NCBI GenBank assembly: GCA_038845975.1
Contig: JAWBQF010000021.1
Span: 1-47,956, forward strand
DNA length: 47,956 bases
Direction: 5' to 3'
DNA from: Candidatus Methanomethylicia archaeon
GTDB taxonomy: Archaea; Thermoproteota; Methanomethylicia; CALHIW01
Positions 2,434 through 47,956 of this stretch are shown piece after piece (the first letter of the stretch is position 1; each line of letters begins with the position of its first letter). The notes under the pieces are model-generated. The model ran no database searches. It was not told the origin of the DNA and was given only the letters and a program-made list of their open reading frames with translations. Made by a program: the position numbers and the translations under genes.

Positions 2434-2611
2434 ATAATCATACTTACTGTAAAAATCAAATAATAGTGCGGTATTCACCCCTTAGTAAGATGCTATTGCT
2501 AATTTATTGATATATTGAATGCTGTTCGCTTTATACTTGAGGTTCTCGCTAACTTCTAATTAAGAATTTAAAAATAATTAACCCCTAAGACAAATACACT
2601 AACAACCTTAT

Positions 2612-2698
2612 ATAACCTAAGTCAAAGGTGATTGATTTGAGTGTTAGAGGTAAACTTGCATCTGAGTTGGCTTCACTTATAGACAAGCAAGTTACAGT
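2612..2698 (+). repeat. Exact 87-bp direct repeat, copy 1 (copy 2 = 3646-3732, 5' end of lsm)
   Basis: ATAACCTAAGTCAAAGGTGATT...GCAAGTTACAGT identical at both positions. Confidence 0.95.
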
Positions 2699-2904: not shown

Positions 2905-3661
2905 TACGATGTTAAGCTCACTTCTAGGTTGTTCAATCTCCAATTATTTGTACTTATATTAAGCTTATTATAAGGTAATATTGTCTATAGTATTAGGATT
3001 AATGAATTTAGATGATCAATAGCATATTAAGATAAAGCAAAATTGAAAAAGAAAGACTACTCTATTTCTCACTCTTTGTTGAGAGATGAAATTAGACATC
3101 ATTCTTTATAGTAACTTTTAGGGTAACTATTGGTCTACATCAACTGTAAAGATGTAGTATAAGTATTTTAAGTTATTTTGTTAAGTTCCAGTCTTAATTT
3201 GATGTACTTTTACCAATTAATAACTTGCCAAATTTTATTTGAAATATTATAATATTTTTGAATAAGCTCTTTATTGGTTTACGTATTTGCCATGAAACGG
3301 GTCTTTGTTCTTCTTTTAACAACTTCTGGTTACTGATTATTTGTTTATTCTTCTTTCTTTAAGAGTTTCTCTATTTTCTCTTTTGTTCGTTTATTTTCCA
3401 AATAGCTCGTTTCCTAAATTTATATCGATTCTCCAAGTCCTTTATAAGACTTGGATCTGATAAGTATTTTTGGTAGGTAACTACTCTAATACTCATTATA
3501 AATCAGTAATTGGATTATAACAACATATAAGTAATTACCTCAACTTATAATCATAAATAACTTAAAACATGTAAACATATACTTAGTATTAAGTTAGCAA
3601 AGTTACCATTAATTAAAACAGAAATATTTAAAAGTATTTCCTAACATAACCTAAGTCAAAG

Positions 3662-4096
3662 GTGATTGATTTGAGTGTTAGAGGTAAACTTGCATCTGAG
3701 TTGGCTTCACTTATAGACAAGCAAGTTACAGTTAAAACTACTTTAGGGGATATATTTACTGGAAAAGTTGTTGCAATAGAATTCCCTGAGTTTCATGTTT
3801 GTTTAGCAGATGTTATTGATGGAAATGGAGAGAAGCATCCTAGAGTAATAATTAGAGGTGAAGTGATTGCTGAAATATTTAGAAAGGAAAAACCATTTGA
3901 TTTAAAGGGATTAGCTGAAAGGCTTGAAAAGTTATTCCCAAACATGGTAAAGTACTATGAGGAGGCTAGAGTAATAACTATCATGGATAGAGTTAGAGTT
4001 ACTGAGCAAGGTGTTGTTGAGGGAACAGGATTAGTAGCTGATAAAGTTAAGAAAGTTTATGATGCCTATGTAGAGGAGTTAAAAGAAAAAGCATAG
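3662..4096 (+). CDS. Sm-like (Lsm) RNA-binding protein with C-terminal domain, SmAP3 type
   Basis: Sm1/Sm2 motifs (LIDKQVTVKT..G..FTGKV; RVIIRGEVIAEI) plus C-terminal alpha/beta extension; true start may be TTG at 3671 after GGTGA. Confidence 0.85.
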   Translation: MIDLSVRGKLASELASLIDKQVTVKTTLGDIFTGKVVAIEFPEFHVCLADVIDGNGEKHPRVIIRGEVIAEIFRKEKPFDLKGLAERLEKLFPNMVKYYEEARVITIMDRVRVTEQGVVEGTGLVADKVKKVYDAYVEELKEKA

Positions 4097-8556: not shown

Positions 8557-10002
8557 TTAATGGTTTTTCTCAGCTAGGATTGTTAGAAATTTATCTATAA
8601 CTTTTTCTGGAGCTTTGATTTCTTCAAGTTTTGCTATAGACTCAATAGTCAATGGTAGATAAAGAATAATATTAGGTCCTGAAATCCTTACAGTATTCGA
8701 ATCAATATAATCTATTAGCCATTCACCATTTGTTCTGCAAATATTTTTGAAGATCATATTACTATCCTTATTTAATGAGTAAATTTCGTTATTATTAGTT
8801 GCAATAGTGTAATTACTTTCCTTATCTACACATGTTTGTCTGACCCTATTTTTTATCAGTTTTAATTTATTGTTGATTATTGTAATGATGTAGCATCTTT
8901 CTTTAATCTCTATTTTCCTTTTCTCCATTTTAAAAAATAATGGTTTAATTTTCGTTATTTTTCCCCATTCTTTAATAATGGCTTCCCCTCCTTTTAATTT
9001 TAAATTAACCACTGACGTATCATTGGGTGCTGTTGCAAATGAAATCCAAAGAGGAGCTCTTACTTTAATGGCTTTACTTATTAGCGAAGCTGAGGGAGTT
9101 ATCATAATAATCATTGCTCCACATTTTTGTACTTCAAGAATCCATTTCGTAAATATTGTGTCTTCTGTGGAAATTAAATTATGTGCCTCTTCAATTACAA
9201 TTATTCCACAAATCTCTTCTAAAGATTTTTCTCTTGAGAATTTTTGAAGAAGTTGCTTCAAAATTAATGCGTATCCTATTTTTTTCTCTGTTTCTCCTCC
9301 AGTTACAACAAACACTCCAGGATCTGTGAAACGGATTGAACGTCTTTCTCCTATAATTAAACTCTCAAGTTTTCTAAGTATTATTTGCTGCATTGTAGTT
9401 TCAGATATATTTTCATAATCAATAGCTAGTCGTTCTATCATTCTTTTTATGTCAAGAATACTTACTTCTGCTACTCCTCTATTACTTAAAGCTTTTAATA
9501 CACGTAGTAATAAATTCATTTGCTGATCCGTTAAGTTTAATGCTGTGCCTAAAAGATCTCTTGTTTCGATGATTTCCCCTTCCTTTTCAATAGGGAAAAC
9601 TACTGTGGATAAATTCATTTCATGACGTGGAAGACCTAGTACATTATATTCATCATACCAATCAAAGACATAAATATTACTTTTATTACTAAGCTTTTTA
9701 ATAATTCTTTGTATGAATCTTGTTTTTCCTGAGCTGGAAGCTCCTGTTACTAAAAGAAGTATTGGTCTGATTTCCAAAAAAACAGGTCTTATGCCTGAGA
9801 AACCGACTAGTAAACTGTTTTTAATTCTTAGTACTTTCAATAAAGCTAAAGTAACTACACCTACTAGTGTAAATATACATAGAAAAACGTAAGTATAGTC
9901 TAATGTAGTTTCATGTTTAAATATAAGTATGTATGTGATCAAGAGTGCAAAAACAATATACATTATGTAATCTAAACAATCATAATTCCTTCCCATTGTC
10001 AT
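8557..10002 (-). CDS. Membrane-anchored FtsK/HerA-superfamily (VirB4/HerA-like) ATPase
   Basis: Two N-terminal hydrophobic helices, Walker A GASSSGKT, VFDWYDEY motif, Walker B IIVIEEAHNL. Confidence 0.75.
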   Translation of the reverse strand: MTMGRNYDCLDYIMYIVFALLITYILIFKHETTLDYTYVFLCIFTLVGVVTLALLKVLRIKNSLLVGFSGIRPVFLEIRPILLLVTGASSSGKTRFIQRIIKKLSNKSNIYVFDWYDEYNVLGLPRHEMNLSTVVFPIEKEGEIIETRDLLGTALNLTDQQMNLLLRVLKALSNRGVAEVSILDIKRMIERLAIDYENISETTMQQIILRKLESLIIGERRSIRFTDPGVFVVTGGETEKKIGYALILKQLLQKFSREKSLEEICGIIVIEEAHNLISTEDTIFTKWILEVQKCGAMIIMITPSASLISKAIKVRAPLWISFATAPNDTSVVNLKLKGGEAIIKEWGKITKIKPLFFKMEKRKIEIKERCYIITIINNKLKLIKNRVRQTCVDKESNYTIATNNNEIYSLNKDSNMIFKNICRTNGEWLIDYIDSNTVRISGPNIILYLPLTIESIAKLEEIKAPEKVIDKFLTILAEKNH

Positions 10003-10432
10003 TTAAATATCTGATGCTACTAAAGGAAAAAATAGCTACTAGTTTTTTATTGATAAATAGTTTTGCTGTCATTTCCCCTTCATTCATATAAACTACAAAC
10101 TTTTATATTCTCATCTATCTGGCAAGCATATAAAATAATGCTTTACAATTATTTAATCTTGTTAATTTGCCATAAGGAAGATAACTTGCAAACTTTAGAT
10201 GCAAAACATTATAGTTGATAGTTTAATTCATGAGGATAATTAACAGTCAGAGAAGATTTAATATACTATGTCTAATTATCAATTCTAACCCTAAATTGAG
10301 ACTTGATTGGAAATATAGTTAGAGATCATATGCATGATTGAGTTCATAAATCTCTCACAAACTAAGCAAAGCTTTATACTTCGTTTAACAACATTAGTTG
10401 TTGATCATTTATCATAAAATAATTTTTCTTAT

Positions 10433-11123: not shown

Positions 11124-12103
11124 TAGGCTGTGGCAAAATTCTTAAGCTTTTTCTTCGTATGCTTCTCCATAGCTCATTTATCTAAGGGGATGCTTGAAGT
11201 CGTCTTTAAGGATGTTCTCGAGGAAGTTGTTCTACCAGCTGGGAGGCGTGTAGGGGAAGGCCAGGCTATCCGGTAAGCTCCATGGTGAAGACCTTCATCC
11301 TCATGTTCATCAGGGACTTATTGAGCGAGAGGTCTCTTGAAAGGTACCTCATGGACCATCCAGAGGAAGCCTCCTTATGTGGCTTCAAGGATGTGCCTTA
11401 GCACTCAACGTTCAGCCGATTCAGGCGCAGGATGGGTGAACACTTCTTTCAGGGGCTGTTTAGAAGGGTAAGAGCCGTACTGGATGTGGATCTACCATAC
11501 AAGGTTGTTATAGTGGATTCGACGCCCGTACCTAAGCCTAACGACCCTGAAGCTGAAGTAGGCTTTTACACTAGAGCTTTAAAGGGTTTAAGGTACACGT
11601 GGCTTCCTGTGAGCATGGTTTACCGAGGTCCGCCATGGTCACTACTGGGAACCGCCACGACAGCCCCTTCATGCCCAAACTCCTCGAGGACATGGGATCC
11701 ATCAACGCCGTTGTAGCAGACACTGGTTACGATAGTGAGGAGAACTATAGATGCATCGTCGAGGAGCATAACGCCATTCCCATAGTAGCCAGGAACAAGC
11801 GTAATAAGAAGGATGGAAGATTTAAAAAAGAAACTCCATCCGTAACAACCCTCCCATAAGCCCAGGCTCCAATACTTGGAGGAGGCTCTACAGGAGGAAG
11901 AGTGCCATCGAGCAGCCCTTCTCAATCCTTAAGGATACCGAAAAAGCTTTACGTGAAAGGTCTAGCTAACATAGCCGTATACGTCCTCCTAGCCCCTATA
12001 GCTTTACTAACCATAGCCATAACAACCATCAGGACGAGGAGACCAGGGCTTCTAAGGCGCATAGGAATATTCAAATACTAAGGCGGAATTATACCACAGC
12101 CTA
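11124..12103 (+). mobile_element. IS5/IS1182-like DDE insertion sequence, transposase pseudogene
   Basis: TIRs TAGGCTGTGGCAAAATTC/GAATTATACCACAGCCTA, 7-bp TSD ACAGAAA; motifs P*HSTFSRFRRR, IVDST, GNRHDS, VADTGYDS; in-frame TAG at 11399-11401 and frame break near 11580; GC-richer than host. Confidence 0.9.
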
Positions 12104-12155: not shown

Positions 12156-12557
12156 TGAACTCATCTTAAAATTAGATTTAAATAGACTAAAATCTTATCT
12201 GGCTTTATGGATTGGGCTTATGAGGTGCTGGTGGAGGTTCTTCATAGAGGTTCTAAGATGGGTCTTAACATCCTCGTTTATAGGAGTTGTCTAGCCCGTA
12301 GACGGCCCACAACCACTTAAGACATTTAGTTAATCAGGCCTTACGCTTAAAGAAGCTGTAAGGCATGGTCGTGGCAGACCAACCATACCGTACTTTATAC
12401 CTAGACAGGTTGCGTTAGCATCAAAGGACATTATGATCGTAAGCCTAACCCTCCAAAGGTTAAGGAGCATATGTCGCTTTAAGAAGGAGGATGCTACAAA
12501 ACATCATCAAAGAAAAAGGAATTAAATCTATTTTAGTCTAGTTTTAAGATGAGTTCA
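12156..12557. mobile_element. About 400-bp non-autonomous element (internally deleted IS/MITE)
   Basis: 21-bp near-perfect TIR TGAACTCATCTTAAAATTAGA/TCTAGTTTTAAGATGAGTTCA; GC-richer interior; no clear TSD. Confidence 0.75.
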
Positions 12558-13360
12558 AATATTAAGTCTTTTGCGGATCATACCTTATGTGTATTGTTAC
12601 ATATGTGAGCATTGTTTTTTGTCTTTCATATCTTGTTATTGCTTTTTATAATGTCTTAAGCATAATTTCCTTAACACTATACTTCTTAACCTACTCCTAC
12701 TTCATCCATACTATATGCGAGTCTTCACGCTCCAGGCTTATCGTAGAGCTTATAGGTCCAGGTATTGCTGAGGCTTATGATTAGGATATTGTGTAAACTC
12801 TCATCAAATATTATATGTATCTTATTCCTCGTATCTTGTTACATCTTCCCTAGTTTCTACAGCTATTTATAACAGCCTCATTCAGTATTAGGTATTAGGA
12901 GTTTAATACTCTATTCCATACACCAGCCTATCGAGAACTCTCTAGCAGTATTCTGTATATAGTTACTGTTAGCTGTAAGTAAAAATATGCTTTTAAGTGT
13001 CTACATGATTGCTGGAAGATGCTAGCCTTGAATTCTCCTACTTTTAAATTCTCCTACTTTTAAATATTTCGAGACTAAATTTAATATTAGTCTTTTAAAC
13101 TTAAACTAATGGCTCTGTAGAAAACCTACAATTAAGCCTTATTATCTTTAATATTATAGCTTTGCTCTATAAGAAAACTTCCCAGAATTGCCATATTCAT
13201 GTCAAAATGAAAGAATTGAGGATAGCAGCATACAGATGTTGTTCCATAGAAGCGAGAGTTTCCTATGGAACTCTAATCTGCCACTTTTTATATATAATTC
13301 TAGCTTTTCTGGTAAACTTATAACTACACAACCTTTAAAGTTCGCAGAGCTATTTAAGTT

Positions 13361-18357: not shown

Positions 18358-19020
18358 GTGTTTGTTACACTATCATTACTCCTTGTTTATGCTTGTTATT
18401 AGGTTGTGTATGTATATGAAGCTATGTAGCTAGCTTATTGTTCTTGTTATTTCCTTTGAAATTATTGAATCTTTTAATTCTATGTTTAATGATTTGAATA
18501 CTTGTTCAACTACATTCTTAAAGGTCATGTTTATTTTGCTTAATCCGATCAAAACCTTTATACAAGGCCCTCCATCATGTATGTATTTAACTTCAATTCC
18601 TAGCTTTAACTATTCTTAAACATCTAGGTACGATTACGTAGGCTAACGTAAACCTCAACAATAAACTTAATTCAACATCAACTATAATATGAATATTCTA
18701 CTATCCATAGGCTCTAGTTTCATCTACAGCTACAATCCTAACCTTAAATCTATTCTAATTCTGAAAGCATACGCCAATATCTCTATAGGCTTTTATGTGA
18801 ATATCCATGAGCAGTTAGAGAAGCTCTAAAGATAAGTGAGATAATAATCTATTAAGCCACTAGCTAACTTCAACTTAAACATGCAAAGACTTAATAACCC
18901 TTAAACATGAATTAATAAGAGGCCCAACCCTAAACCCTACAAGTAACTCTACACATAAACTATAAAGATTGAAACCCATATAAACCAACACAAACATACC
19001 AATAATGTTGCGACAAACAC
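18358..19020 (-). mobile_element. Decayed IS6-family element
   Basis: TIR GTGTTTGTTACAC/GTTGCGACAAACAC, perfect 8-bp TSD ATGAAAAT (18350-18357, 19021-19028); minus-strand fragments IVAVDETR, IHDGGP, NVVEQVFKSLKHRIKRFNNNF. Confidence 0.8.
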
Positions 19021-21948: not shown

Positions 21949-22476
21949 TTAACAATCCCTACTAACTCTCTCAATAATAGCTTCAAGAACACGCTTAATA
22001 GCCTCATTTTCTTCATATTCCAAAACAGCTCCACATATCTGGCATTTAAAATTATTTTCATAAGCTTCATCAAAAGTCATTCGCATATGTTCTCTGTTAA
22101 TACATCTGTAGAAGCTATTTATCTTTTCATATTCAAGCCTCTCTTGAAGTTTTTTTAGCACATGTCTTTTCATTTCATCCATAAATTTCTTTAAATTATC
22201 TGGTTGAAGATACCATTGATATATGAACCATCCAGTTTCTTTATCTCTTACTCTCTTATAATATGCTAACTGGTTAGTATGTAGAAAGTAAAGTATTTTT
22301 CTAATAATATTTACCTTTAAATCGCTTTTTTGGGAAATTTCCATATCTGTTATGCCTGGACTACTATATACCATTTTTGCTATTACCACAGCAGGTTCGC
22401 CAATGATGACTTTTATTATTTCTTCGAAATCCTTAGGCAATGTTTTTAAATCCTTTTTAGTAGGCACTTCGATCAC
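21949..22476 (-). CDS. tfe: Transcription factor E, alpha subunit
   Basis: wHTH with IRKILY.L, RVRDKETGWFIYQW, LQERLEYE, Zn ribbon (YRC...FKCQICG). Confidence 0.93.
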   Translation of the reverse strand: MIEVPTKKDLKTLPKDFEEIIKVIIGEPAVVIAKMVYSSPGITDMEISQKSDLKVNIIRKILYFLHTNQLAYYKRVRDKETGWFIYQWYLQPDNLKKFMDEMKRHVLKKLQERLEYEKINSFYRCINREHMRMTFDEAYENNFKCQICGAVLEYEENEAIKRVLEAIIERVSRDC

Positions 22477-22529
22477 TTTATTTTTATAATCTCCACTTTA
22501 ACATTTTTAAATATTATGCTTCATCTATT

Positions 22530-23707
22530 GGACGTGGCAACTTAAGGGGTTGTATAAGTTTTGTTGTTACTTTTTATGTTGGTATTGGTGTTTGTAGTAT
22601 CTTGTGGTTTTGAGGGGTAGGGTTTTGTTGGGTGTTGAGGTTCTAGTATAGTTTTTATATTAGATGTTTGAGGAGTTGGAGTATTATTTGGTTATGGGTT
22701 TCTGGATGTTTTGGTAGGTGGGTGAATAGGTTTAGGGGTGAGTGTGGATCATTCCTAGGGGTATAGATGGGACTGGGGTTAATGCTAGTGTAGATTATTG
22801 AGTTATTAGGTATTTAGGGGTGAAGTAATAGTTGTGAAGGTATTTAAGGGAATATTATGATGTTTAATTATTAATGAGGTATTGTGATGAGTATAGGTTT
22901 TCATTGATATTAGATTATGGCTTCAAAACCTCTCAAGAAATAAACCATCATCGTTAAAATTCATAGGAGAATTATAGTAGATAAGATACTCATCATTCAG
23001 TAAAGAACAAAATACCCAACATCACATCAAACCAATAAATAAAATCATAGATAAGAGAAAAATGAATACTAGAACTCATAAACTATTCATACAATCTACA
23101 ACCACCTAGAAAATGAGCTTAAGCTGCCAGGTCCCATCTATTTGTCTTATCAACTTTAAATTTTTTATATCACTCTCCTAACATGTTTCAATAACTTCTT
23201 ACATCTATTGTGTGTATTAATCACGCTTCTAATAAAACTTTTAAATACTCTGTTGTCTCTCCAATATTTTATACTTAATAATTTGATAGTGTTTAGTCTA
23301 TTAGCTTTAGCAATACATACTAGCATTAGATGATCAATGGTAGCTATTTCAGCATCAAATTCATCCTTCGATACTTTAATAGTATGTGTACATCAATTAT
23401 ATGTGAGAATAACACGTGAATCTATGTCATCCTCCCTTAAAATGCAATCCATACAGTAAGTGAATCAATTCTAACATTATATTTACCAACATAACCTTTC
23501 TAACCAATAATAATTAATAATTCATCAAATCTATAAATTTACTTATAACTGGCGATCAATAGCTAATGTTCTATTCATCCTTAAGCTACAATCAGAGAAC
23601 ATAAACCTACAAATAGAATGATATTTTTAGTCTATTATAATCCATAATCACTAACCATGCAAATACAGAGCAAACATCCCAAATAAACCTCTAAAGTTGG
23701 CAAGACA
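22530..23707. mobile_element. Old, heavily decayed 1.18-kb IS relic
   Basis: Degenerate TIR (14/20) GGACGTGGCAACTTAAGGGG vs TGTCTTGCCAACTTTAGAGG; 8-bp TSD CATCTATT/CATCTGTT; homologous segments at 17955-18349 and about 36220-36530. Confidence 0.75.
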
Positions 23708-23822
23708 CATCTGTTTTCCTTAAAGATTTTTAAGAGGCGTTGTTGGTAATTAACTAGTTACTAGAGCATTCTAGACTTTAGGCTTCTTTTATGGTTGTAT
23801 CCTCAGTTTATTGATTTCCATT

Positions 23823-24344: not shown

Positions 24345-24415
24345 AAAATCAACTAGGTTAATTTTTACAATACTATACTATTTTTAGAGTTATAAATTTA
24401 ACTTTAGTACAGTAA

Positions 24416-24970
24416 GCTTTGTTAGCTTTATTTCTTCCTTATTTATGGTGTTGGTAGGTCTAATGTTATCTTATTGGGGTGGGTGCTTTGTTTGTTTTGT
24501 TTATGTTGTTGTATGTTTGTTATCTGGTATGTCTTTAGAATTTTGTTTATTTTGTAGGGTTGTATTTGTTTTATGGTTTATCTTAAGCTTCTATTGAGTT
24601 TAATAAGGGAATTCTCTACATATGTTGTAAGCATACTTACATTCCTAACATTAAGATAATAAGGGCTATCTATGATTCTAATATAATTGTAATTGTAGTA
24701 CATAACAATTATTTACGGAGATAAAATATTAAATCTAATGAAGTATGTGATTTAGAGGTTAGAATTAATTGAAAAGAATACAATATAGGATAAATAAACT
24801 ATTCAATAATTACATAAGGCATGAAAGATAAATGTGGGGTGAACACGTACTCATGATTATGAAATCAATAGTATATCTAACGAACATGGATTACAAGAGG
24901 ATAAAGCTAAGAATTCATAGAAACACAAAACCAAAATAAAGATAATAAAACATAGTTAAATCCACAAAGT
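24416..24970. mobile_element. Family-A MITE, full length (about 555 bp)
   Basis: Ends GCTTTGTTAGCTTTA...TTAAATCCACAAAGT; body collinear with 36786-37283; right arm shares 59 identical bp with 69-127. Confidence 0.75.
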
Positions 24971-25143
24971 CTATATAAGGCTTGTTAACTTAATAAAATT
25001 GCTAACAAGTTTCTAATTTTGGACCTGACAATTTGAGAAGGAGGCTATGATATACTAAGTTGTCATATCCTTAATTTTGCCGGAATGCTTATAAGAAACA
25101 ATTAAAAACTATGTTAAAATATTTAAGATTAAAGGTGAGATAT

Positions 25144-26325
25144 ATGGGTGGCGCACCTGTAACAATAAAATATTTAATTAGAGCAGGAATAGAAATAAGT
25201 GGTATTGTTGATAAACCAGACGTTATAGGAGCAATATTCGGCCAAACTGAAGGATTACTTGGAGAGGATCTAGATTTAAGAGAACTTCAAAAAAGCGGTA
25301 GAATAGGCAGAATACATGTTGAATTAATTGAGAAAGGAGATAAATCACATGGAGAAATAGTAATCCCATCAGGTCTTGATAGAGCAGAGACAGCTTTAAT
25401 AGCTGCTTCCCTTGAAGTTATTGAAAAAGTAGGGCCTTGTGATGCACGGGTACATATAAAAGCAATAGAGGATATAAGAGAGGAAAAAAGAAGGAAGATT
25501 CTAGAAAGAGCGAAAGAACTCTTAAAAAAAATGAGTAGAGAAGCCATTCCAAATAGTAGGAAGCTTGCAGATGAAGTACTAAATGCTGTACGGGAGCAAG
25601 AAGTTATAAAGTACGGATCAGAAGAACTGCCTGCAGGTCCTGAAATAGATACATCTGATACAGTAATAGTGGTAGAAGGGCGAGCTGATGTTATTAACCT
25701 CATTAAGAATGGATTTAAGAATGTTATAGGAATGGGAGGAACAAGTATTCCGAAAACAATAATCGATCTAAGTAGGAGAAAGCACATCATAGCTTTTGTT
25801 GATGGAGATAGAGGAGGAGAACTTATTTTAAGAGAATTGTTAAAGGTAGCAGAAATAGATGAAGTTGCAATAGCACCTCCAGGTAAGGAAGTTGAAGAAT
25901 TAACAAATAAGGAAATAGTGAAATGTCTTCAGAATAGAGTACCTGTAGCAGAATACTTGCATAAGGATTCAATACAACTAGCTAAGCAACAAAAAGCACT
26001 TATAGAGGGAGAAATAAGCATTCCACAATCTATTATGACTCAGATAAAGGAGTTGGAAAACACACTTGAAGCTATACTTTATGACAATAATTGGAATATA
26101 ATACAAAAAGTAGCAGTAAGCGAGTTGCCAGAAATTATGCAAAAAATTCCAGAAGCCTATGCTTTAGCATTTGATGGCATAATCACTCAAAGAATTCTCG
26201 ACTTATCTGAGGATAAATCAGTAAAGTTAATTATAGGAGCCAAGCTTGGAAATATAGTGAAGAAGCCTTTAAATATTCAAATACTTACTTTTACTGATTT
26301 GAAAAAAGAAGAAAATAATAAATAG
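25144..26325 (+). CDS. dnaG: Archaeal DnaG (exosome-associated TOPRIM protein)
   Basis: VDKPDVIGAIFGQTEGLLG, VVEGRADV, AFVDGDRGG, FDGIITQR; ATG 25144 follows AGGTGA. Confidence 0.96.
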   Translation: MGGAPVTIKYLIRAGIEISGIVDKPDVIGAIFGQTEGLLGEDLDLRELQKSGRIGRIHVELIEKGDKSHGEIVIPSGLDRAETALIAASLEVIEKVGPCDARVHIKAIEDIREEKRRKILERAKELLKKMSREAIPNSRKLADEVLNAVREQEVIKYGSEELPAGPEIDTSDTVIVVEGRADVINLIKNGFKNVIGMGGTSIPKTIIDLSRRKHIIAFVDGDRGGELILRELLKVAEIDEVAIAPPGKEVEELTNKEIVKCLQNRVPVAEYLHKDSIQLAKQQKALIEGEISIPQSIMTQIKELENTLEAILYDNNWNIIQKVAVSELPEIMQKIPEAYALAFDGIITQRILDLSEDKSVKLIIGAKLGNIVKKPLNIQILTFTDLKKEENNK

Positions 26326-36785: not shown

Positions 36786-37283
36786 GGCTTTGTGAACTTT
36801 AGCTTTATTTATGGTGATATGGTTAGGTTGTGGGTTTTGTTTTGCTCTGTTTATTCTAGTTTTATATTGCTATATATTTTGTTCATCTAGTATAGTTTAT
36901 ATGTTTTAAGCTTATTATGTAGAGTTATATCTATGTTACGGTTTATCTTAAGCTATTTAAATTTAATAAGAGAATGTTAAGATTGATAGTTAAGGATACT
37001 AGTATGGTTAAGTTCTAGAAATAGTATTTACCTGGTATTATTAAAAGAATTCTTAATACATATGTTTACGATATTGTAAATACATTTACATCCTAACATT
37101 ATCACCAAAAGAGAATACAGTATAGGATAGATTACATATCATGTATAGAGTAGTGATAGCGAACATGTACTCATGATTATAGATTAACAGCTAAACAAAC
37201 ATAGGATAATAGGATAAAGCTAAGAATTCATAGAAACACAAACCGAAATAGAAGTGGTAAAACATATTTAAATCCGTAAAGCC
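36786..37283. mobile_element. Family-A MITE, full length (about 500 bp)
   Basis: Ends GGCTTTGTGAACTTTAG...TTAAATCCGTAAAGCC; collinear with 24416-24970 (GGTTTATCTTAAGCT, TACA.TCCTAACATT, GAACA.GTACTCATGATTAT). Confidence 0.8.
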
Positions 37284-37728: not shown

Positions 37729-38220
37729 AGTCTTGTGTTTTATGTCTATGGTGGCTTGTAGTTTGGTAGCAAATTGATTAGGTTTCTGCTTTCCTATTTG
37801 TTATGATTAAGATATGTTACTTCTATGTTGTTAGTATGTCGTAAACGGAAGGTTCTAGTACGGTATTAGTTATAGCTTGAAGGATTTGGAAGTTAATGTA
37901 TGGAATGAAGCACTAAAATTATAGCCTCTAAAATAAATAGATGGATAGCTATAAATAGTCATATAGCTTAAGTAGATAATAAGATATGATAACGATTAGA
38001 AGTAATGTAAGAGCTTAGTAGTTGCTAGTAAGAAACTTGTTAATGACTTAAAGCTTTAATTTTTTCAATAAGCTTTACACTAAGTTGAAGAATATTAAGA
38101 TTTAGAGTTCAACATACAATACGTTAAAAATAGAATATGACTATACAAAATAATAGAATAAACAATAAAAGACAAAAAATACCTAACAACAAACCACATA
38201 AAATATAAAACCTAAAAGCC
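37729..38220. mobile_element. Decayed IS/MITE relic
   Basis: Degenerate inverted ends of about 35 bp, G/T-rich left arm and A/C-rich right arm as in the other relics; limits approximate. Confidence 0.5.
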
Positions 38221-41573: not shown

Positions 41574-42297
41574 GATACTGTCAAGTTATTTTTAGGGAGC
41601 TTTGAGAAGCCGCTTTTGGAGGTGATCACCATTAGGTGGCTCCTCAAAGCCCTTAAGAATAGTGGTTTGTTTAGGATTAATAGGTTTTCGCTCCAGATGA
41701 AGGTTAGGGCAGTTCTGCTTATATGGCTGGCCTAAGCTATAGGGAAATAATCTACGTTCTGGGGTTTGTGCCGTGCAGCTACGAGGCCGTAAGGCTTTGG
41801 TTAGAAGCTGGAACGCGTGACCGTTAACGTTGGAGCTAAGCCTAGGCGTATGGTAGCCGTTGATGAGACTAAGATTAAGGCTAATGGGAATGATGATACG
41901 TATGGGCTGCTATAGATGTCGATACGCGTGAGCTTCTAGCCGTATGGGTTTCATGGCGGAGGAACATCCTCCATCAGAAGCCTTTCTGAGGAAAGTTCTG
42001 GAAGCATGCGCGAACAAGCCCATTATCCTCGTTGATAAGGGTCCTTGGTATCCTGAGGCGCTTCAAGCCCTTGGGCTTGAATTGGTCCATAGAACCTTCG
42101 GTGAGAGGAACCGTATTGAACGATGGTTCAGAACCATGAAAGCCAGGACTAAGCGCTTCTTCAACAACTTCCCAATAAGGAAAAGCCTATCTTCAAGATA
42201 AAACTCTTCATAAGGCTCTTCGTCCTATGGTACAACTTCATAAGGCCGCATCAAACCCTAGGAAGACCGCCAGCAATACCGATAACTTGACAGTATC
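41574..42297 (+). mobile_element. IS6-family element, transposase pseudogene
   Basis: Perfect 16-bp TIR GATACTGTCAAGTTAT/ATAACTTGACAGTATC; fragments VAVDETKIK, YVWAAIDVDT, VDKGPWY, ERNRIERWF; stops and frameshifts; no matching TSD. Confidence 0.92.
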
Positions 42298-42379: not shown

Positions 42380-43843
42380 GTGGGCGTTATTATGTTTATC
42401 CGTAGAGGAAGACGTTTAGAAATACTATCTAAAGATCAGATTTATCGTATTCACTTAGCATCTATTGAAATACTGGAGAATACTGGGGTTAAAATTAATC
42501 ATGAAGAAGCCTTAAGAATGCTTGATAGACTTGGTGTTTATGTTAACTACAAAAGTAAAAACGTGAAAATATCCGAATCCATAGTAAGAGAAGCTCTAAA
42601 AAAGATTCCTTCAGAATTTACATACTATGGAAGAAAAACAAAATTGGATGTAAAAGACGACTACGTATACTATCTAAGTGGCGGCTCCCCCTTAAAAGTC
42701 ATGGATCTAAATGGAAATATTAGAAATGCAACGTTAAAGGACTTATCAGAATTTGTAAGGCTTTACGATGCTTTAAATTATGTAGACTTTATTTCTGGAA
42801 CGTTAACTCCTACAGATATTCCTAATGAATTACGTCACCTATATAGTTTCCTTATAAAGCTGGAAAACACAGTAAAGCCAATTACAGTAGGATCGTTACT
42901 TAATGAGGATGTATGTATGGATGTAATTAATCTTGCATCTATAGCTGCTGGAGGAATTGAGGAACTTCGTAAGAAACCAATAATTATGGCATGGGAGAAT
43001 CCTTTAAGCCCGCTAAGCCATATTAAAAGCCAAGTTGCTCAAATACTTATTTTTGCTAAATATCATCTACCTATTCTAATAGCTTCAGCACCACAATCTG
43101 GATCTACCTCACCAATAACTCTAGCTGGAACCTTAGCTCAGCAGAACGCTGAGATTCTAAGTGGCTTCATTATTGCCTATGCGTCATTAGAAGGTAGAAG
43201 TATGCCCCCATTAATATATGGAACAGCTCCTGCCGTATTAGACTTAAGATATGGAACAATGGTTTATGGCTGTCCTGAAAGCATGCTTATTAATGTTGCA
43301 TCAATTCAGATAGCGAGATATTATGGTATTCCATGTAGATGTACTGCAGGATCTACAGAATCGAAATCAATTGATGTCCAAGCTGGTTATGAAACTGCTA
43401 TGACTCTACTTAGTGTAGCCTTAGCTGGCGGCAACTTAGTAATGAATGCAACTGGTGGGGCGATGGGTCCAGGAGTTGATATTATGAGTTTTGAAAAGGC
43501 AGTTATAGATAATGAAATAGCTGGATATATTGATAGATTTCTGAAAGGCATAGATGTAGATGATGAAACTCTAGCCCTAGATGTTATAAGAGAGGTAGGT
43601 TCTGAAGGACACTATATGAGTAGAAAACATACATTAAAACATTACAGAGAACATTACATACCTATATTAAGTAATAGAAAGCCTACAGAAAGATGGCTTC
43701 TTGATGGAGATGATGTAAGAAGAAAAGCTAGGGAAACAGCTTTAAAAATACTTAAAGAGCACCAGCCGGAAGAGCTAGATAAGAATATAAAAATGGAAAT
43801 AGAGAAGTACATAAATGAGGTTAAAAGTAGAAGGTTAAAGTAA
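42380..43843 (+). CDS. MttB-superfamily corrinoid methyltransferase, non-pyrrolysine
   Basis: IHLAS.EILE.TGV, SPL, G.TSPITLAGTLAQQNAE.LSG, YGCPE, Q.ARYYG.P, SK..D.QAGYE, SFEK..IDNE; no in-frame TAG. Confidence 0.9.
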   Translation: MGVIMFIRRGRRLEILSKDQIYRIHLASIEILENTGVKINHEEALRMLDRLGVYVNYKSKNVKISESIVREALKKIPSEFTYYGRKTKLDVKDDYVYYLSGGSPLKVMDLNGNIRNATLKDLSEFVRLYDALNYVDFISGTLTPTDIPNELRHLYSFLIKLENTVKPITVGSLLNEDVCMDVINLASIAAGGIEELRKKPIIMAWENPLSPLSHIKSQVAQILIFAKYHLPILIASAPQSGSTSPITLAGTLAQQNAEILSGFIIAYASLEGRSMPPLIYGTAPAVLDLRYGTMVYGCPESMLINVASIQIARYYGIPCRCTAGSTESKSIDVQAGYETAMTLLSVALAGGNLVMNATGGAMGPGVDIMSFEKAVIDNEIAGYIDRFLKGIDVDDETLALDVIREVGSEGHYMSRKHTLKHYREHYIPILSNRKPTERWLLDGDDVRRKARETALKILKEHQPEELDKNIKMEIEKYINEVKSRRLK

Positions 43844-47830: not shown

Positions 47831-47956
47831 GCTTTGTGGCTTAATTATTGTTGTGTGTTTGCTCTTTGTTTTGGTGTTAGGTTTGTGTTTATAGGTTTAT
47901 GATTGTGTTGTATATGTATGCTTTTATTGTAGCTCTTTAGCTATGTTTGTTAGCTC
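47831..47956. mobile_element. Left arm of a MITE/IS relic (truncated by window end)
   Basis: Starts with GCTTTGTGGCTTAAT, identical to the TIR at 10433, followed by strongly G/T-rich sequence. Confidence 0.7.

What the first reader, a model, noticed from the sequence alone, without database searches (positions are those of the whole stretch)
22530..23707. Symmetric end-directed strand bias in old mobile elements (G/T left arm, A/C right arm)
Seen: the bias starts abruptly at the TIRs and flips inside the element, whatever the family or ORF orientation. Hand counts: 22561-22680 has 39 G and 3 C; 24481-24540 has only 7 A and 3 C in 60 nt; 18931-19000 has 19 C and 3 G; 38161-38220 has 2 G and 7 T in 60 nt. 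The same polarity appears in 18358-19020, 24416-24970, 36786-37283, 37729-38220 and 47831-end. The younger, GC-richer copies (11124-12103, 41574-42297) lack it. Known: C->T and A->G are the deamination products of single-stranded DNA. Inference: the 5' portion of each strand is repeatedly exposed or edited. This fits strand-displacement forks entering from both ends during replicative transposition, inward transcription, or an undescribed host system that hypermutates mobile DNA (RIP/APOBEC-like). It would also let transcripts fold into long G-U-tolerant hairpins.
Basis: partly seen in the sequence, partly recalled or inferred. Interest (0 to 1): 0.75.

Follow-up and report, generated by a model that had tools for sequence, protein, structure and literature searches.

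The report
Mirror-image strand bias in archaeal transposons
In this hot-spring archaeon almost every transposon copy is rich in G and T at its left end and in A and C at its right end, a mirror-image pattern that looks like a mutational scar left by the way these elements are copied or repaired.

Summary
All four hand counts reproduce exactly. Across the 2.77-Mb genome, G+T excess rises from about -0.02 outside to +0.21/+0.23 just inside the left edge of 264 repeat intervals, and mirrors at the right edge. 16 of 66 repeat clusters show the polarity strongly and 0 show the opposite. Gene-paralogue clusters are flat.

It occurs in IS5-family, IS4/5, IS6-family and several MITE families. It runs almost linearly through zero at the element centre. 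Polarised comparisons show C>T and A>G on the 5' part of each strand in some lineages. In E1a these are 10 of 19 C and 31 of 93 A, against 2 of 64 G and 1 of 124 T.

- The skew is not a sign of age. E1a is missing from a contig of a near-identical strain and from the same-genus genome.
- Skew does not track GC decay.
- Most of the skew sits in subfamily consensus, and at third codon positions of intact transposase genes.

An A>T component also exists. No CDA-fold deaminase was found. My best reading, at 0.45, is mutation coupled to end-initiated DNA synthesis during transposition or gap repair.

The parts
22530..23134 (.). E1a: 605-bp non-coding TIR element (MITE-like). Its ends read GGACGTGGCAACTTAAG... 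and ...CTTAAGCTGCCAGGTCC, with the 8-bp target duplication CATCTATT on both sides. It is a hypermutated member of a family of about 610 bp.
   Evidence: full-length copy on C10 at 92%, partial copies on C28, C58, C38. (polarised changes). (a contig of run X12 joins 22543 to 23159, skipping it). (absent in G001).
22530..22910 (+). G+T-rich arm of E1a (A83 C13 G124 T161).
   Evidence: at sites conserved in at least 3 of 4 unskewed relatives, positions 1-400 show C>T 10/19, A>G 31/93, G>A 2/64, T>C 1/124.
22911..23134 (+). A+C-rich arm of E1a (last third -0.34).
   Evidence: positions 401-600 show G>A 4/13, T>C 3/29, C>T 2/13, A>G 2/61.
23143..23710 (.). E1b: second TIR element of about 570 bp. 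Its terminal repeats are 23140-23158 and 23692-23710. The gradient is weaker (+0.06/-0.13/-0.23).
   Evidence: It is present in the X12 strain contig with 16 differences and 5 gaps over 23159-23706.
24416..24978 (.). E2: MITE of the largest family (cluster 0). Its ends read GGCTTTGTTAGC... and ...CACAAAGTC. The left 190 nt are strongly G+T-rich.
   Evidence: the left arm is 99.5% identical to copies on C32 and C34 whose remainder is 71-78% identical. (arm test p 6.7e-6)..
18358..19020 (.). E3: non-coding element with one 84% relative (C4:76081-76761). First 100 nt +0.38, last 100 nt -0.50.
36786..37283 (.). E4: MITE related to E2 (+0.43/0.00/-0.17).
   Evidence: The interval that holds it is 1,300 nt here and 357 nt in G001.
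37729..38220 (.). E5: small TIR element (+0.37/-0.01/-0.34). A copy on C28 has an internal deletion.
   Evidence: The interval is 689 nt here and 67 nt in G001.
47831..47956 (.). Left end of an IS5-family element of about 980 bp, cut by the window end. The TIR is AGCTTTGTGGCTTAATTA.
   Evidence: (DDE_Tnp_1 and DDE_Tnp_1_5).
41574..42297 (.). Y2: IS6-family pseudogene, 47% GC, with ends GATACTGTCAAGTTAT... and ...ATAACTTGACAGTATC. It carries the same polarity weakly.
   Evidence: NCBIfam transpos_IS6, E 2e-13, 50.5 bits, below the whole-protein cut-off of 125 because the query is an 85-aa fragment.
11124..12103 (.). Y1: IS4/5-type (DDE_Tnp_1) pseudogene, 49% GC, with the same polarity weakly.

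Best explanation
The skew is a mutational footprint written while the elements propagate, not while they sit. All these elements are DDE/TIR transposons or their non-autonomous derivatives. In such elements, host DNA synthesis enters from both ends after strand transfer or after excision. This can happen by target-primed gap filling or strand displacement, by forks of a replicative intermediate, or by synthesis-dependent strand annealing (SDSA) that re-copies the element into the gap left at the donor site. In each of these geometries, the strand whose 5' end lies at a given end is the one displaced, or newly made and left single-stranded longest, near that end. Its damage or copying errors (C>T, A>G, and purine>T) become fixed. 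The result is a G+T excess that is highest near each 5' end and falls to zero at the centre. Lineages that move inherit and add to it; resident copies only decay. Shown here: end anchoring, the gradient, the polarity of the substitutions, inheritance among copies, presence in active and intact copies at synonymous sites, and mosaic and deletion derivatives. Inferred: the link to transposition-associated synthesis, and which of the sub-variants applies.
For: (1) End anchoring and universality. The step occurs at the edges of 264 repeat intervals. 35 of 66 clusters have left>0 and right<0 against 3 opposite; strong cases are 16 against 0. The first-minus-last-third difference is positive in 18/18 IS6-family, 17/17 IS4/5, 7/7 IS5-family and 90/92 MITE copies. 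(2) A near-linear gradient through zero in non-coding MITEs (n=92 and n=26) and in dead IS copies. Gene paralogues (n=22) are flat. The decay scales with element length. (3) Polarity: E1a and the IS6-family copy C2:56667-57324. Of 266 arms, 8 show forward excess at p<1e-3 and 0 show reverse excess (three of the 8 share one left arm). (4) It is not an ageing effect. E1a is insertion-polymorphic and absent in G001, and skew is uncorrelated with GC decay. (5) Active lineages carry it at synonymous sites. In intact IS5-family ORFs the first fifth has third-position skew +0.62 (own genome) and +0.76 (genome G231), against +0.03 and +0.10 at first positions. The last fifth has -0.21 and -0.28. (6) Hallmarks of template-switching gap repair. 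E1 against the C10 copy is 98.7% identical over 445 nt but 75% over the left 170 nt. E2-type copies share a 99.5%-identical arm on divergent bodies and deletion variants. (7) No candidate editing enzyme was found and context is weak. (8) The same pattern is seen in 5 of 5 copies fetched from the same-genus genome. (9) The closest analogue is the strand-displacement gradient of mitochondrial DNA, in the same pair of complementary transitions and mirrored in base composition (abstract of 10.1101/2021.06.18.448725).
Against: There is no direct evidence for single-stranded intermediates, gap repair or replicative transposition in this organism. From recalled rate constants, heat-driven hydrolytic deamination is too slow to give 30-50% conversion, and should favour C over A by far more than the roughly 2:1 seen in E1a. 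The extreme copies therefore need either very many cycles or an unknown accelerant. The E1/C10 difference is one-sided: the left 170 nt differ and the right arm hardly does. That fits recombination better than symmetric per-cycle damage. Terminal-branch parsimony shows only 1.3-2.8-fold asymmetry on the left arms of cluster 0 and little on the right. Full-length IS5-family homologues at 55% identity or less in 6 other Thermoproteota genomes lack the pattern, so it is not a general property of DDE transposition or of this phylum. UDG, EndoV and NucS genes are present. The rejection of strand symmetry may largely reflect inherited composition, because the model assumes stationarity.
Confidence: 0.45

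Rival explanations
1. Selected architecture: G+T-rich inward-reading arms serve a DNA- or RNA-level function, such as arrays of subterminal transposase-binding sites or signals for strand discrimination. On this view they are conserved rather than produced by mutation pressure.
For: Most of the skew lies in the family consensus. IS5-family relatives at 57% identity or more in other metagenome-assembled genomes keep the TIR GCTTTGTGGCTTAATT and skewed ends, while more distant homologues lack them. Skew is independent of copy age. Hypermutated copies still transpose.
Against: The same polarity appears in at least four unrelated TIR types. It extends as a smooth gradient across whole non-coding and dead elements. 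Individual lineages differ from their relatives almost only by two transitions. T runs of 5 or more, the archaeal terminator signal (recalled), are under-represented in arms: 146 observed against 550 +/- 19 in shuffles, a ratio of 0.27, compared with 0.69 in unique DNA.
Confidence: 0.2
2. Convergent inward transcription from promoters at both ends exposes the non-template strand and causes transcription-associated mutation. This yields a G+T-rich sense strand, as reported for mammalian genes (recalled: Green et al. 2003; not fetched).
For: The polarity and the abrupt onset fit. Terminal branches show a modest in-situ asymmetry. T runs are avoided on the inward-reading strand.
Against: It predicts accumulation in resident copies with age, which is not seen. 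It needs inward promoters at both ends in every family. Host genes do not show it: 69 of the 253 extreme segments lie in unique ORFs, which cover 67% of the genome.
Confidence: 0.15
3. A host or element-borne enzyme, an undescribed deaminase or error-prone polymerase acting as a defence, hypermutates mobile DNA on exposed strands.
For: Some copies are extreme and patchy: E1a has 41 forward against 3 reverse transitions in 400 nt. Per-site rates for C and A are similar. There is a mild preference for C after T (37/71 against 26/86 after A, C or G) and for A after a purine (47/156 against 41/237).
Against: No PF00383 or PF14437 deaminase was found (genome 93% complete). No Y-family polymerase was found. 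Context preferences are weak. Hypermutated copies remain mobile. The patchiness is partly recombination.
Confidence: 0.1
4. Assembly or sequencing artefact of a metagenome-assembled genome.
For: The genome is in 76 contigs with 4.3% estimated contamination.
Against: The 3.4-kb stretch that includes E1 and E2 is held by 19 of 20 listed public runs from 11 studies, 11 of them with at least half of its words. Contigs of two runs (X5, X10) match E1a pieces with 0-1 other letters.
Confidence: 0.02

Closest known systems
Strand-displacement mutational gradient of vertebrate mitochondrial DNA (10.1101/2021.06.18.448725; abstract read)
   Same: The same complementary pair of transitions occurs on one strand only. 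The gradient is graded with distance and mirrored in base composition, making a G+T-rich 'heavy' strand.
   Different: Here there are two opposed gradients per element of 0.5-1 kb, anchored on transposon ends, in a chromosome. An A>T component is also present. Replication origin and mode are unknown.
Compositional asymmetry of linear replicons that replicate from both termini, such as adenovirus (recalled: Grigoriev 1999; not fetched)
   Same: The polarity switches near the middle of a DNA with terminal inverted repeats.
   Different: Those are autonomous genomes of tens of kb with protein-primed replication. No such polymerase is linked to these elements here.
Mutagenic repair synthesis: break-induced replication and gap repair after transposon excision (PMC3039667 and PMC3330096; search listings and abstract starts only)
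   Same: Repair synthesis is error-prone and leaves long single-stranded nascent DNA. Gap repair at excision sites yields internally deleted and chimeric elements like those seen here.
   Different: These processes are known in yeast and Drosophila. No end-anchored compositional gradient has been reported for them, and none of them has been shown in archaea.
RIP in fungi and APOBEC editing of retroelements (PMC4866542; search listing only)
   Same: Mobile DNA carries clustered transitions.
   Different: Those processes change C only, depend strongly on context, and act on both strands (RIP) or on one strand throughout (APOBEC). Here A>G and A>T also occur, context is weak, the polarity flips inside the element, and no deaminase gene was found.

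Membership tests
mtDNA-type single-strand-exposure gradient | Only C>T and A>G, not their complements, are raised on the exposed strand | tested here: met
   Met in hypermutated lineages (8 against 0 arms). In typical copies the effect is only 1.1-2.2-fold, with A>T also raised.
mtDNA-type single-strand-exposure gradient | The effect is graded with distance from the point where exposure starts | tested here: met
   Near-linear profile from +0.30 to -0.26 across MITEs, n=92. It scales with element length.
mtDNA-type single-strand-exposure gradient | It depends on strand-displacement synthesis | not testable with these tools
   This needs replication-intermediate or de novo transposition data.
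RIP-like repeat-induced mutation | C>T on both strands over the whole duplicated length, in any repeated DNA | tested here: not met
   The effect is strand-specific and flips. Paralogous gene clusters are flat.
APOBEC/AID/TadA-type enzymatic editing | A CDA-fold deaminase gene is present | tested here: not met
   PF00383 and PF14437 gave 0 matches, while 12 of 14 control genomes rang. The genome is 93% complete. PF02137 also gave 0, but no control genome rang for it.
APOBEC/AID/TadA-type enzymatic editing | A strong local sequence motif | tested here: not met
   C>T after T is 0.52 against 0.27-0.36 after other bases. A>G after A or G is 0.34 and 0.27, against 0.15 and 0.18 after C or T.
IS5 / IS4 family (DDE_Tnp_1) | DDE transposase domain with terminal inverted repeats | tested here: met
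   PF01609 E 3e-24 and PF13737 E 3e-14 for the 290-aa ORF. An 18-bp perfect TIR.
IS6 family | IS6 transposase with short TIRs | tested here: inconclusive
   NF033587 E 2e-13 on an 85-aa fragment, below the whole-protein cut-off. Pfam gave no hit. All 18 copies are broken, with longest ORF 110 aa or less. TIRs are seen.
Foldback / long-hairpin MITE | The arms are long inverted repeats of each other | tested here: not met
   E1a, E2, E3 and E4 have no inverted repeat longer than 31 nt. E1a + strand fold z is -0.94. Only the IS5-family element has an 83-nt imperfect TIR.
Transcription-associated strand asymmetry | The skewed strand is the non-template strand of a mapped transcript | not testable with these tools

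The most novel reading that the evidence does not exclude
Every DDE/TIR element in this thermophilic archaeal lineage carries a heritable, bidirectional, mitochondria-like mutational gradient. It is written by the DNA synthesis that accompanies each transposition or donor-gap repair. The base composition of a transposon then records how it is copied, and a transposition-coupled mutator, possibly including an unknown activity that converts both C and A on single strands, continually recodes mobile DNA without stopping its mobility.
Probability: 0.3. Interest if true: 0.85.

Novelty: new variant of a known kind. Interest (0 to 1): 0.7.

Why it matters
Strand-asymmetric mutation gradients are known for chromosomes, mitochondria and some viruses. 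They are used to infer how those molecules replicate. A gradient anchored on both ends of ordinary insertion sequences and MITEs did not turn up in six full-text searches. If it is mutational, three things follow:
- It gives a sequence-only read-out of the DNA transactions of transposition in uncultured archaea, such as where synthesis starts and how far it runs.
- It shows that transposition itself can be strongly mutagenic for the element.
- It explains odd codon usage at the ends of transposase genes.

It also matters for practice. Such arms defeat similarity searches and repeat annotation, and they can mimic editing.

Tried and rejected
- **Unnormalised parsimony counts.** These looked symmetric. 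The reason is that at a skewed composition equal counts imply unequal per-base rates. I replaced them with per-base rates, consensus polarisation and a non-reversible ML fit.
- **ML fit caveats.** That WS6.6 is the strand-symmetric model is recalled from the program's documentation. The test is confounded by inherited composition.
- **Hairpin idea.** E1a + strand gives z -0.94, with 17 of 100 shuffles folding as well. The - strand gives z -3.56 from a local central hairpin. There is no support for arm-to-arm pairing.
- **Oligo-T terminator or insulator function.** Rejected, because T runs are depleted.
- **Age dependence.** Rejected.
- **In-situ test with orthologous copies.** None could be found. 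E1a, E1b and E5 are absent at the matching sites of G001, and the E4 interval is 943 nt shorter there. The one orthologous pair is E1b in G000 against the run X12 contig. It has 16 differences in 548 nt, against 6 in 572 nt and 19 in 629 nt in the flanks. Only 13 of the 16 are listed (G/A 6, C/T 3, T/C 3, A/C 1) and they cannot be polarised, so this is too few to decide.
- **RNA.** Contigs of the one metatranscriptome laid (X17) covered only the tRNA, part of the TFE gene and 25207-25253. That says nothing about E1 or E2.
- **Single-strand-transposon control.** Only 2 TnpB matches exist in the genome. The one intact element shows no skew, but n=1.
- **PF13610 search of 401 genomes.** It returned mostly ORFs of 370-450 aa of another kind and gave no usable comparison. 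G000 itself had no match at the threshold.
- **Search of the 62 class genomes for intact IS4/5 relatives.** Every match outside G000 is a short fragment (open frames of 110 aa or less), most with stop codons, so no codon-position test of a second family was possible.
- **Codon-position test.** 9 ORFs were examined. I dropped 2 (L017 with 22 stops, L022 with 30 stops) because the frame was unreliable. Of the other 7, 2 are strong, 1 (L037) is mild and 4 distant homologues show nothing.
- **Metagenome scan with a 17-nt internal motif.** It hit at least 115 unrelated contigs. None of the 80 fetched loci matches the E1a family at E<=1e-8.
- **Limits.** I did not ask for supplementary files of papers.
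Full report
**What was checked**

I used keto skew, (G+T-A-C)/length, as the measure. In 100-nt windows it reaches +0.68 in 22541-22660 and +0.70 in 24481-24580. The genome-wide sd is 0.139 and the 99.9th percentile is 0.50. The first-minus-last differences are 0.54-0.93, against a null sd of 0.151. The two 'young' GC-rich copies show the same sign weakly.

**What the elements are**

The interval 22530-23707 holds two elements.
- E1a (22530-23134) has its own terminal repeats and an 8-bp target duplication, CATCTATT. A full-length 92% copy lies on C10 and partial 96-100% copies lie on C28, C58 and C38.
- E1b (23143 to about 23710) has its own terminal repeats.

The same-genus genome G001 has 98 nt where this genome has 1,262 nt (22528-23789), so both elements are absent there. 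E5 is absent from the syntenic G001 contig (689 against 67 nt), and the E4 interval is 1,300 against 357 nt.

A contig from another study's hot-spring run (X12) joins 22543 to 23159. It then continues through E1b with 16 differences. The neighbouring TFE gene differs at 6 of 572 positions. This strain therefore lacks nearly all of E1a. Whether that is a missing insertion or a deletion between the two similar left ends cannot be told. Either way E1a is polymorphic among near-identical strains, and so it is young at this site.

The other families are as follows:
- IS5 family: DDE_Tnp_1 plus DDE_Tnp_1_5, with one intact 290-aa ORF on C61.
- IS4/5 type: DUF4096 plus DDE_Tnp_1.
- IS6 family: NCBIfam fragment match only.
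- Several non-coding MITE families.

These assignments rest. Nearly all IS copies are broken; for example all 18 of 18 IS6-family copies have a longest ORF of 110 aa or less.

**Genome-wide test**

A self-comparison finds 459,867 bases with at least one other copy. At the edges of 264 repeat intervals of 300-3,000 nt the results were:

| Position relative to the interval | Mean skew |
|---|---|
| last 25 nt outside the left edge | -0.01 |
| 0-25 nt inside the left edge | +0.11 |
| 25-75 nt inside the left edge | +0.21 to +0.23 |
| 50-75 nt inside the right edge | -0.22 |
| outside the right edge | +0.00 to +0.04 |

The intervals fall into 66 clusters. 35 have left>0 and right<0, 3 have the opposite, and 26 have one sign on both sides. 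At a threshold of 0.15 the count is 16 against 0. Clusters that are gene paralogues (a thiolase and others) are flat, between -0.09 and +0.07 over 20 bins, n=22. Of 253 segments with |skew|>=0.44, 145 lie in repeated DNA, which is 16.6% of the genome.

The pattern is invariant under reverse complementation. It therefore cannot depend on ORF orientation, and the intact IS5-family ORF is seen on either strand with the same polarity.

**Shape**

In relative coordinates the largest MITE cluster (n=92) runs +0.14, +0.27, +0.30, +0.25 ... +0.08 | -0.07 ... -0.26, -0.25, -0.11. Smaller MITE clusters (n=26) and the dead IS6-family (n=18) and IS4/5 (n=17) copies behave alike. The fall-off scales with element length, although two opposed exponentials would fit as well.

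In the MITEs the skew is mostly T against A: T goes from 0.49 to 0.23 and A from 0.22 to 0.48, while G and C stay nearly flat. A+G is only 0.38 in the left arm. Transitions cannot change A+G, so transversions towards T must contribute.

**Is it derived?**

Yes, in particular lineages.

| Copy and region | C>T | A>G | G>A | T>C |
|---|---|---|---|---|
| E1a, positions 1-400 | 10/19 | 31/93 | 2/64 | 1/124 |
| IS6-family copy C2:56667-57324, left 400 nt | 9/32 | 10/64 | 1/75 | 0/78 |
| Same copy, right part | 0/38 | 7/63 | 5/28 | 5/44 |

For E1a the comparison uses sites conserved in at least 3 of 4 unskewed relatives. Raw pairwise counts agree; for example from the C52 copy to E1 they are A>G 39, C>T 16, G>A 6, T>C 4.

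Over 266 arms, 8 have a forward excess at p<1e-3 and none has a reverse excess. 177 of 266 have forward greater than reverse. Three of the 8 share one nearly identical arm, so they are not independent.

For the bulk of copies the asymmetry relative to the family consensus is mild:
- Pooled per-base rates in the first 150 nt are C>T 0.10-0.15 against G>A 0.07-0.09, and A>G 0.05-0.08 against T>C 0.04. The difference vanishes beyond 150 nt.
- Unique-event ratios in arms are 1.20 (C>T/G>A), 1.16 (A>G/T>C), 1.33 (A>T/T>A) and 1.56 (T>G/A>C), against about 1 in cores.
- Terminal-branch parsimony gives 1.3-2.8-fold on left arms of the big MITE cluster and little on right arms.

A non-reversible ML fit on arms folded onto the 5'-anchored strand gave these rate ratios for MITE / IS6 family / IS4/5:

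| Ratio | MITE | IS6 family | IS4/5 |
|---|---|---|---|
| C>T / G>A | 1.36 | 2.19 | 1.49 |
| A>G / T>C | 1.56 | 1.14 | 0.89 |
| A>T / T>A | 2.65 | 1.44 | 2.53 |

It rejects a strand-symmetric model, with 2dlnL of 160.6, 68.0 and 43.9 on 6 df. Rejection is weaker in cores (94.3, 28.9, 15.4). This test assumes stationarity, so the inherited composition alone may drive it.

So most of the skew is inherited within subfamilies. The consensus of arms is itself T1289, G554, A697, C349.

**It is not an ageing effect**

GC content falls from 46-49% in the best-preserved IS copies towards the genome's 34% in decayed ones. Skew magnitude is uncorrelated with it: r is -0.08, 0.20, -0.25 and -0.05. The most skewed copy is a recent, polymorphic one.

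Intact IS5-family transposase genes carry the skew mainly at third codon positions.

| ORF | First fifth, pos3 / pos2 / pos1 | Last fifth, pos3 |
|---|---|---|
| Own genome | +0.62 / +0.31 / +0.03 | -0.21 |
| Genome G231 | +0.76 / +0.41 / +0.10 | -0.28 |

They mean that lineages still able to move are under this pressure (or under DNA-level selection), and that amino-acid composition is not the cause.

**Other genomes**

5 of 5 dead IS6-family or IS5-family copies fetched from G001 show the same polarity. I profiled IS5-family relatives in other hot-spring metagenome-assembled genomes. The tool printed record titles naming Caldarchaeales, Bathyarchaeia, Nitrososphaeria and Thermoproteota.
- The five loci at 57% identity or more, the own copy included, have +0.40 to +0.68 at the left ORF edge.
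- Three of these have -0.32 to -0.52 at the right edge. One runs off its contig and one is partial.
- The conserved TIR GCTTTGTGGCTTAATT is shared.
- Six full-length homologues at 29-55% identity in other genomes of the phylum show no such pattern.
- Two partial matches (L041, L048) are ambiguous.

The trait is therefore not universal for the family, the phylum or DDE transposition.

**Mosaics**

E1 and the C10 copy are 98.7% identical over 445 nt but 75% over the left 170 nt. There the differences include transversions and indels as well as the forward transitions. The left 190 nt of E2 are 99.5% identical to copies on C32 and C34 whose bodies are 71-78% identical or carry deletions. E5 has a deletion derivative on C28. 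Such chimeras and internal deletions are what template-switching gap repair produces at transposon excision sites in eukaryotes (recalled; related papers were seen only as listings).

**Enzymes and context**

| Family searched | Result |
|---|---|
| PF00383 (CDA-fold deaminase) | no match; 12 of 14 control genomes rang |
| PF14437 (CDA-fold deaminase) | no match; 12 of 14 control genomes rang |
| PF02137 | no match, but no control rang |
| UDG | present |
| Endonuclease V | present |
| NucS | present |
| Y-family polymerase | not found |

The genome is 93% complete, so absences are provisional. Context in six hypermutated arms is weak. C>T after T is 37/71, against 7/26, 8/22 and 11/38 after A, C and G. 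A>G after A or G is 24/71 and 23/85, against 5/34 and 36/203 after C or T.

**Interpretation**

The geometry 'the 5' part of each strand is special, starting exactly at the element end' is the geometry of DNA synthesis primed from flanking 3' ends into a DDE element. Three processes share it:
- gap filling or strand displacement after integration;
- the forks of a replicative intermediate;
- the two nascent strands of synthesis-dependent strand annealing (SDSA) after excision.

In each, that strand is either displaced, or newly made and left single-stranded longest near the end. Deamination (C>T, A>G), depurination followed by insertion of A (purine>T), or G-T mispairs on the nascent strand would all raise G+T there. 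This reading explains the end anchoring, the central zero, the inheritance, the independence from age, the synonymous-site signal and the mosaics.

It leaves four things open. Which sub-variant applies is unknown. Why C and A change at similar rates is unexplained. How single lineages reach 30-50% conversion is unexplained, because recalled rates of thermal deamination are far too low for one or a few events. And why distant relatives elsewhere lack the trait is unknown. I give this reading 0.45. The rivals are a selected architecture (0.2), convergent transcription (0.15), an unknown editing or mutator enzyme (0.1) and artefact (0.02).

**Comparison and novelty**

The closest known phenomenon is the mitochondrial strand-displacement gradient (abstract read). 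Six full-text searches found no report of an end-anchored, mirror-image gradient in insertion sequences or MITEs. Subscription journals are largely outside that library. I rate the finding a new variant of a known kind, namely strand-asymmetric mutation gradients, with interest 0.7.

Noticed in passing
G000:C37:6200-7400 (locus L015:700-1900); also C37:8200-8800, 10000-10400, 12400-13000: A unique, ORF-poor stretch of 1.2 kb with only 7-8 C per 200 nt (G 26-30%, T about 45%) and no A+C-rich partner. Several further G+T-rich patches lie on the same strand, among small coiled-coil and membrane ORFs. This is one-strand C depletion outside TIR elements and may mark an integrated element.
   Followed up: partly
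window 11124-12103, 41574-42297; G000 IS5-family copies (e.g. C61:2661-3650): The best-preserved IS cores have 44-49% G+C in a 33.7% genome. Their closest relatives sit in metagenome-assembled genomes whose contigs have 47-53% G+C. This suggests recent import followed by decay towards the host composition.
   Followed up: partly
whole genome G000: 16.6% of the genome is repeated. At 2.77 Mb it is the largest of the 62 genomes of its class that were searched (the others are 0.5-2.3 Mb). Almost all IS copies are pseudogenes.
   Followed up: partly
arms (first 200 nt) of 165 element copies genome-wide: Homopolymer runs are strongly avoided on the inward-reading strand. T runs of 5 or more: 146 observed against 550 expected from shuffles. 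A runs of 5 or more: 21 against 64. In unique DNA the ratio is 0.69.
   Followed up: yes
window 43352-43454 within ORF 42380-43843: An Rfam match to PYLIS_3, the pyrrolysine insertion element of mttB (43.2 bits, gathering score 38), lies inside an uninterrupted 487-aa ORF.
   Followed up: no
window 2606-2698 and 3640-3732: A 93-nt direct repeat at 98% identity, 1,034 nt apart, overlaps a possible gene start.
   Followed up: no
window 22530-22543 vs 23143-23158; run X12 contig: In the X12 strain the E1b body appears joined to a left end like that of E1a (join 22543>23159 with one extra T). The two elements therefore share interchangeable left termini. The polymorphism may be a deletion between them rather than an empty site.
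   Followed up: partly
window 22470-23153 and 24408-24977: Summed contig depth in runs X5, X10 and X12 is up to about 40-fold (X5, X10) and about 30-fold (X12) above that of the single-copy flanks over E1a and E2. These families are therefore multi-copy in natural populations too.
   Followed up: no
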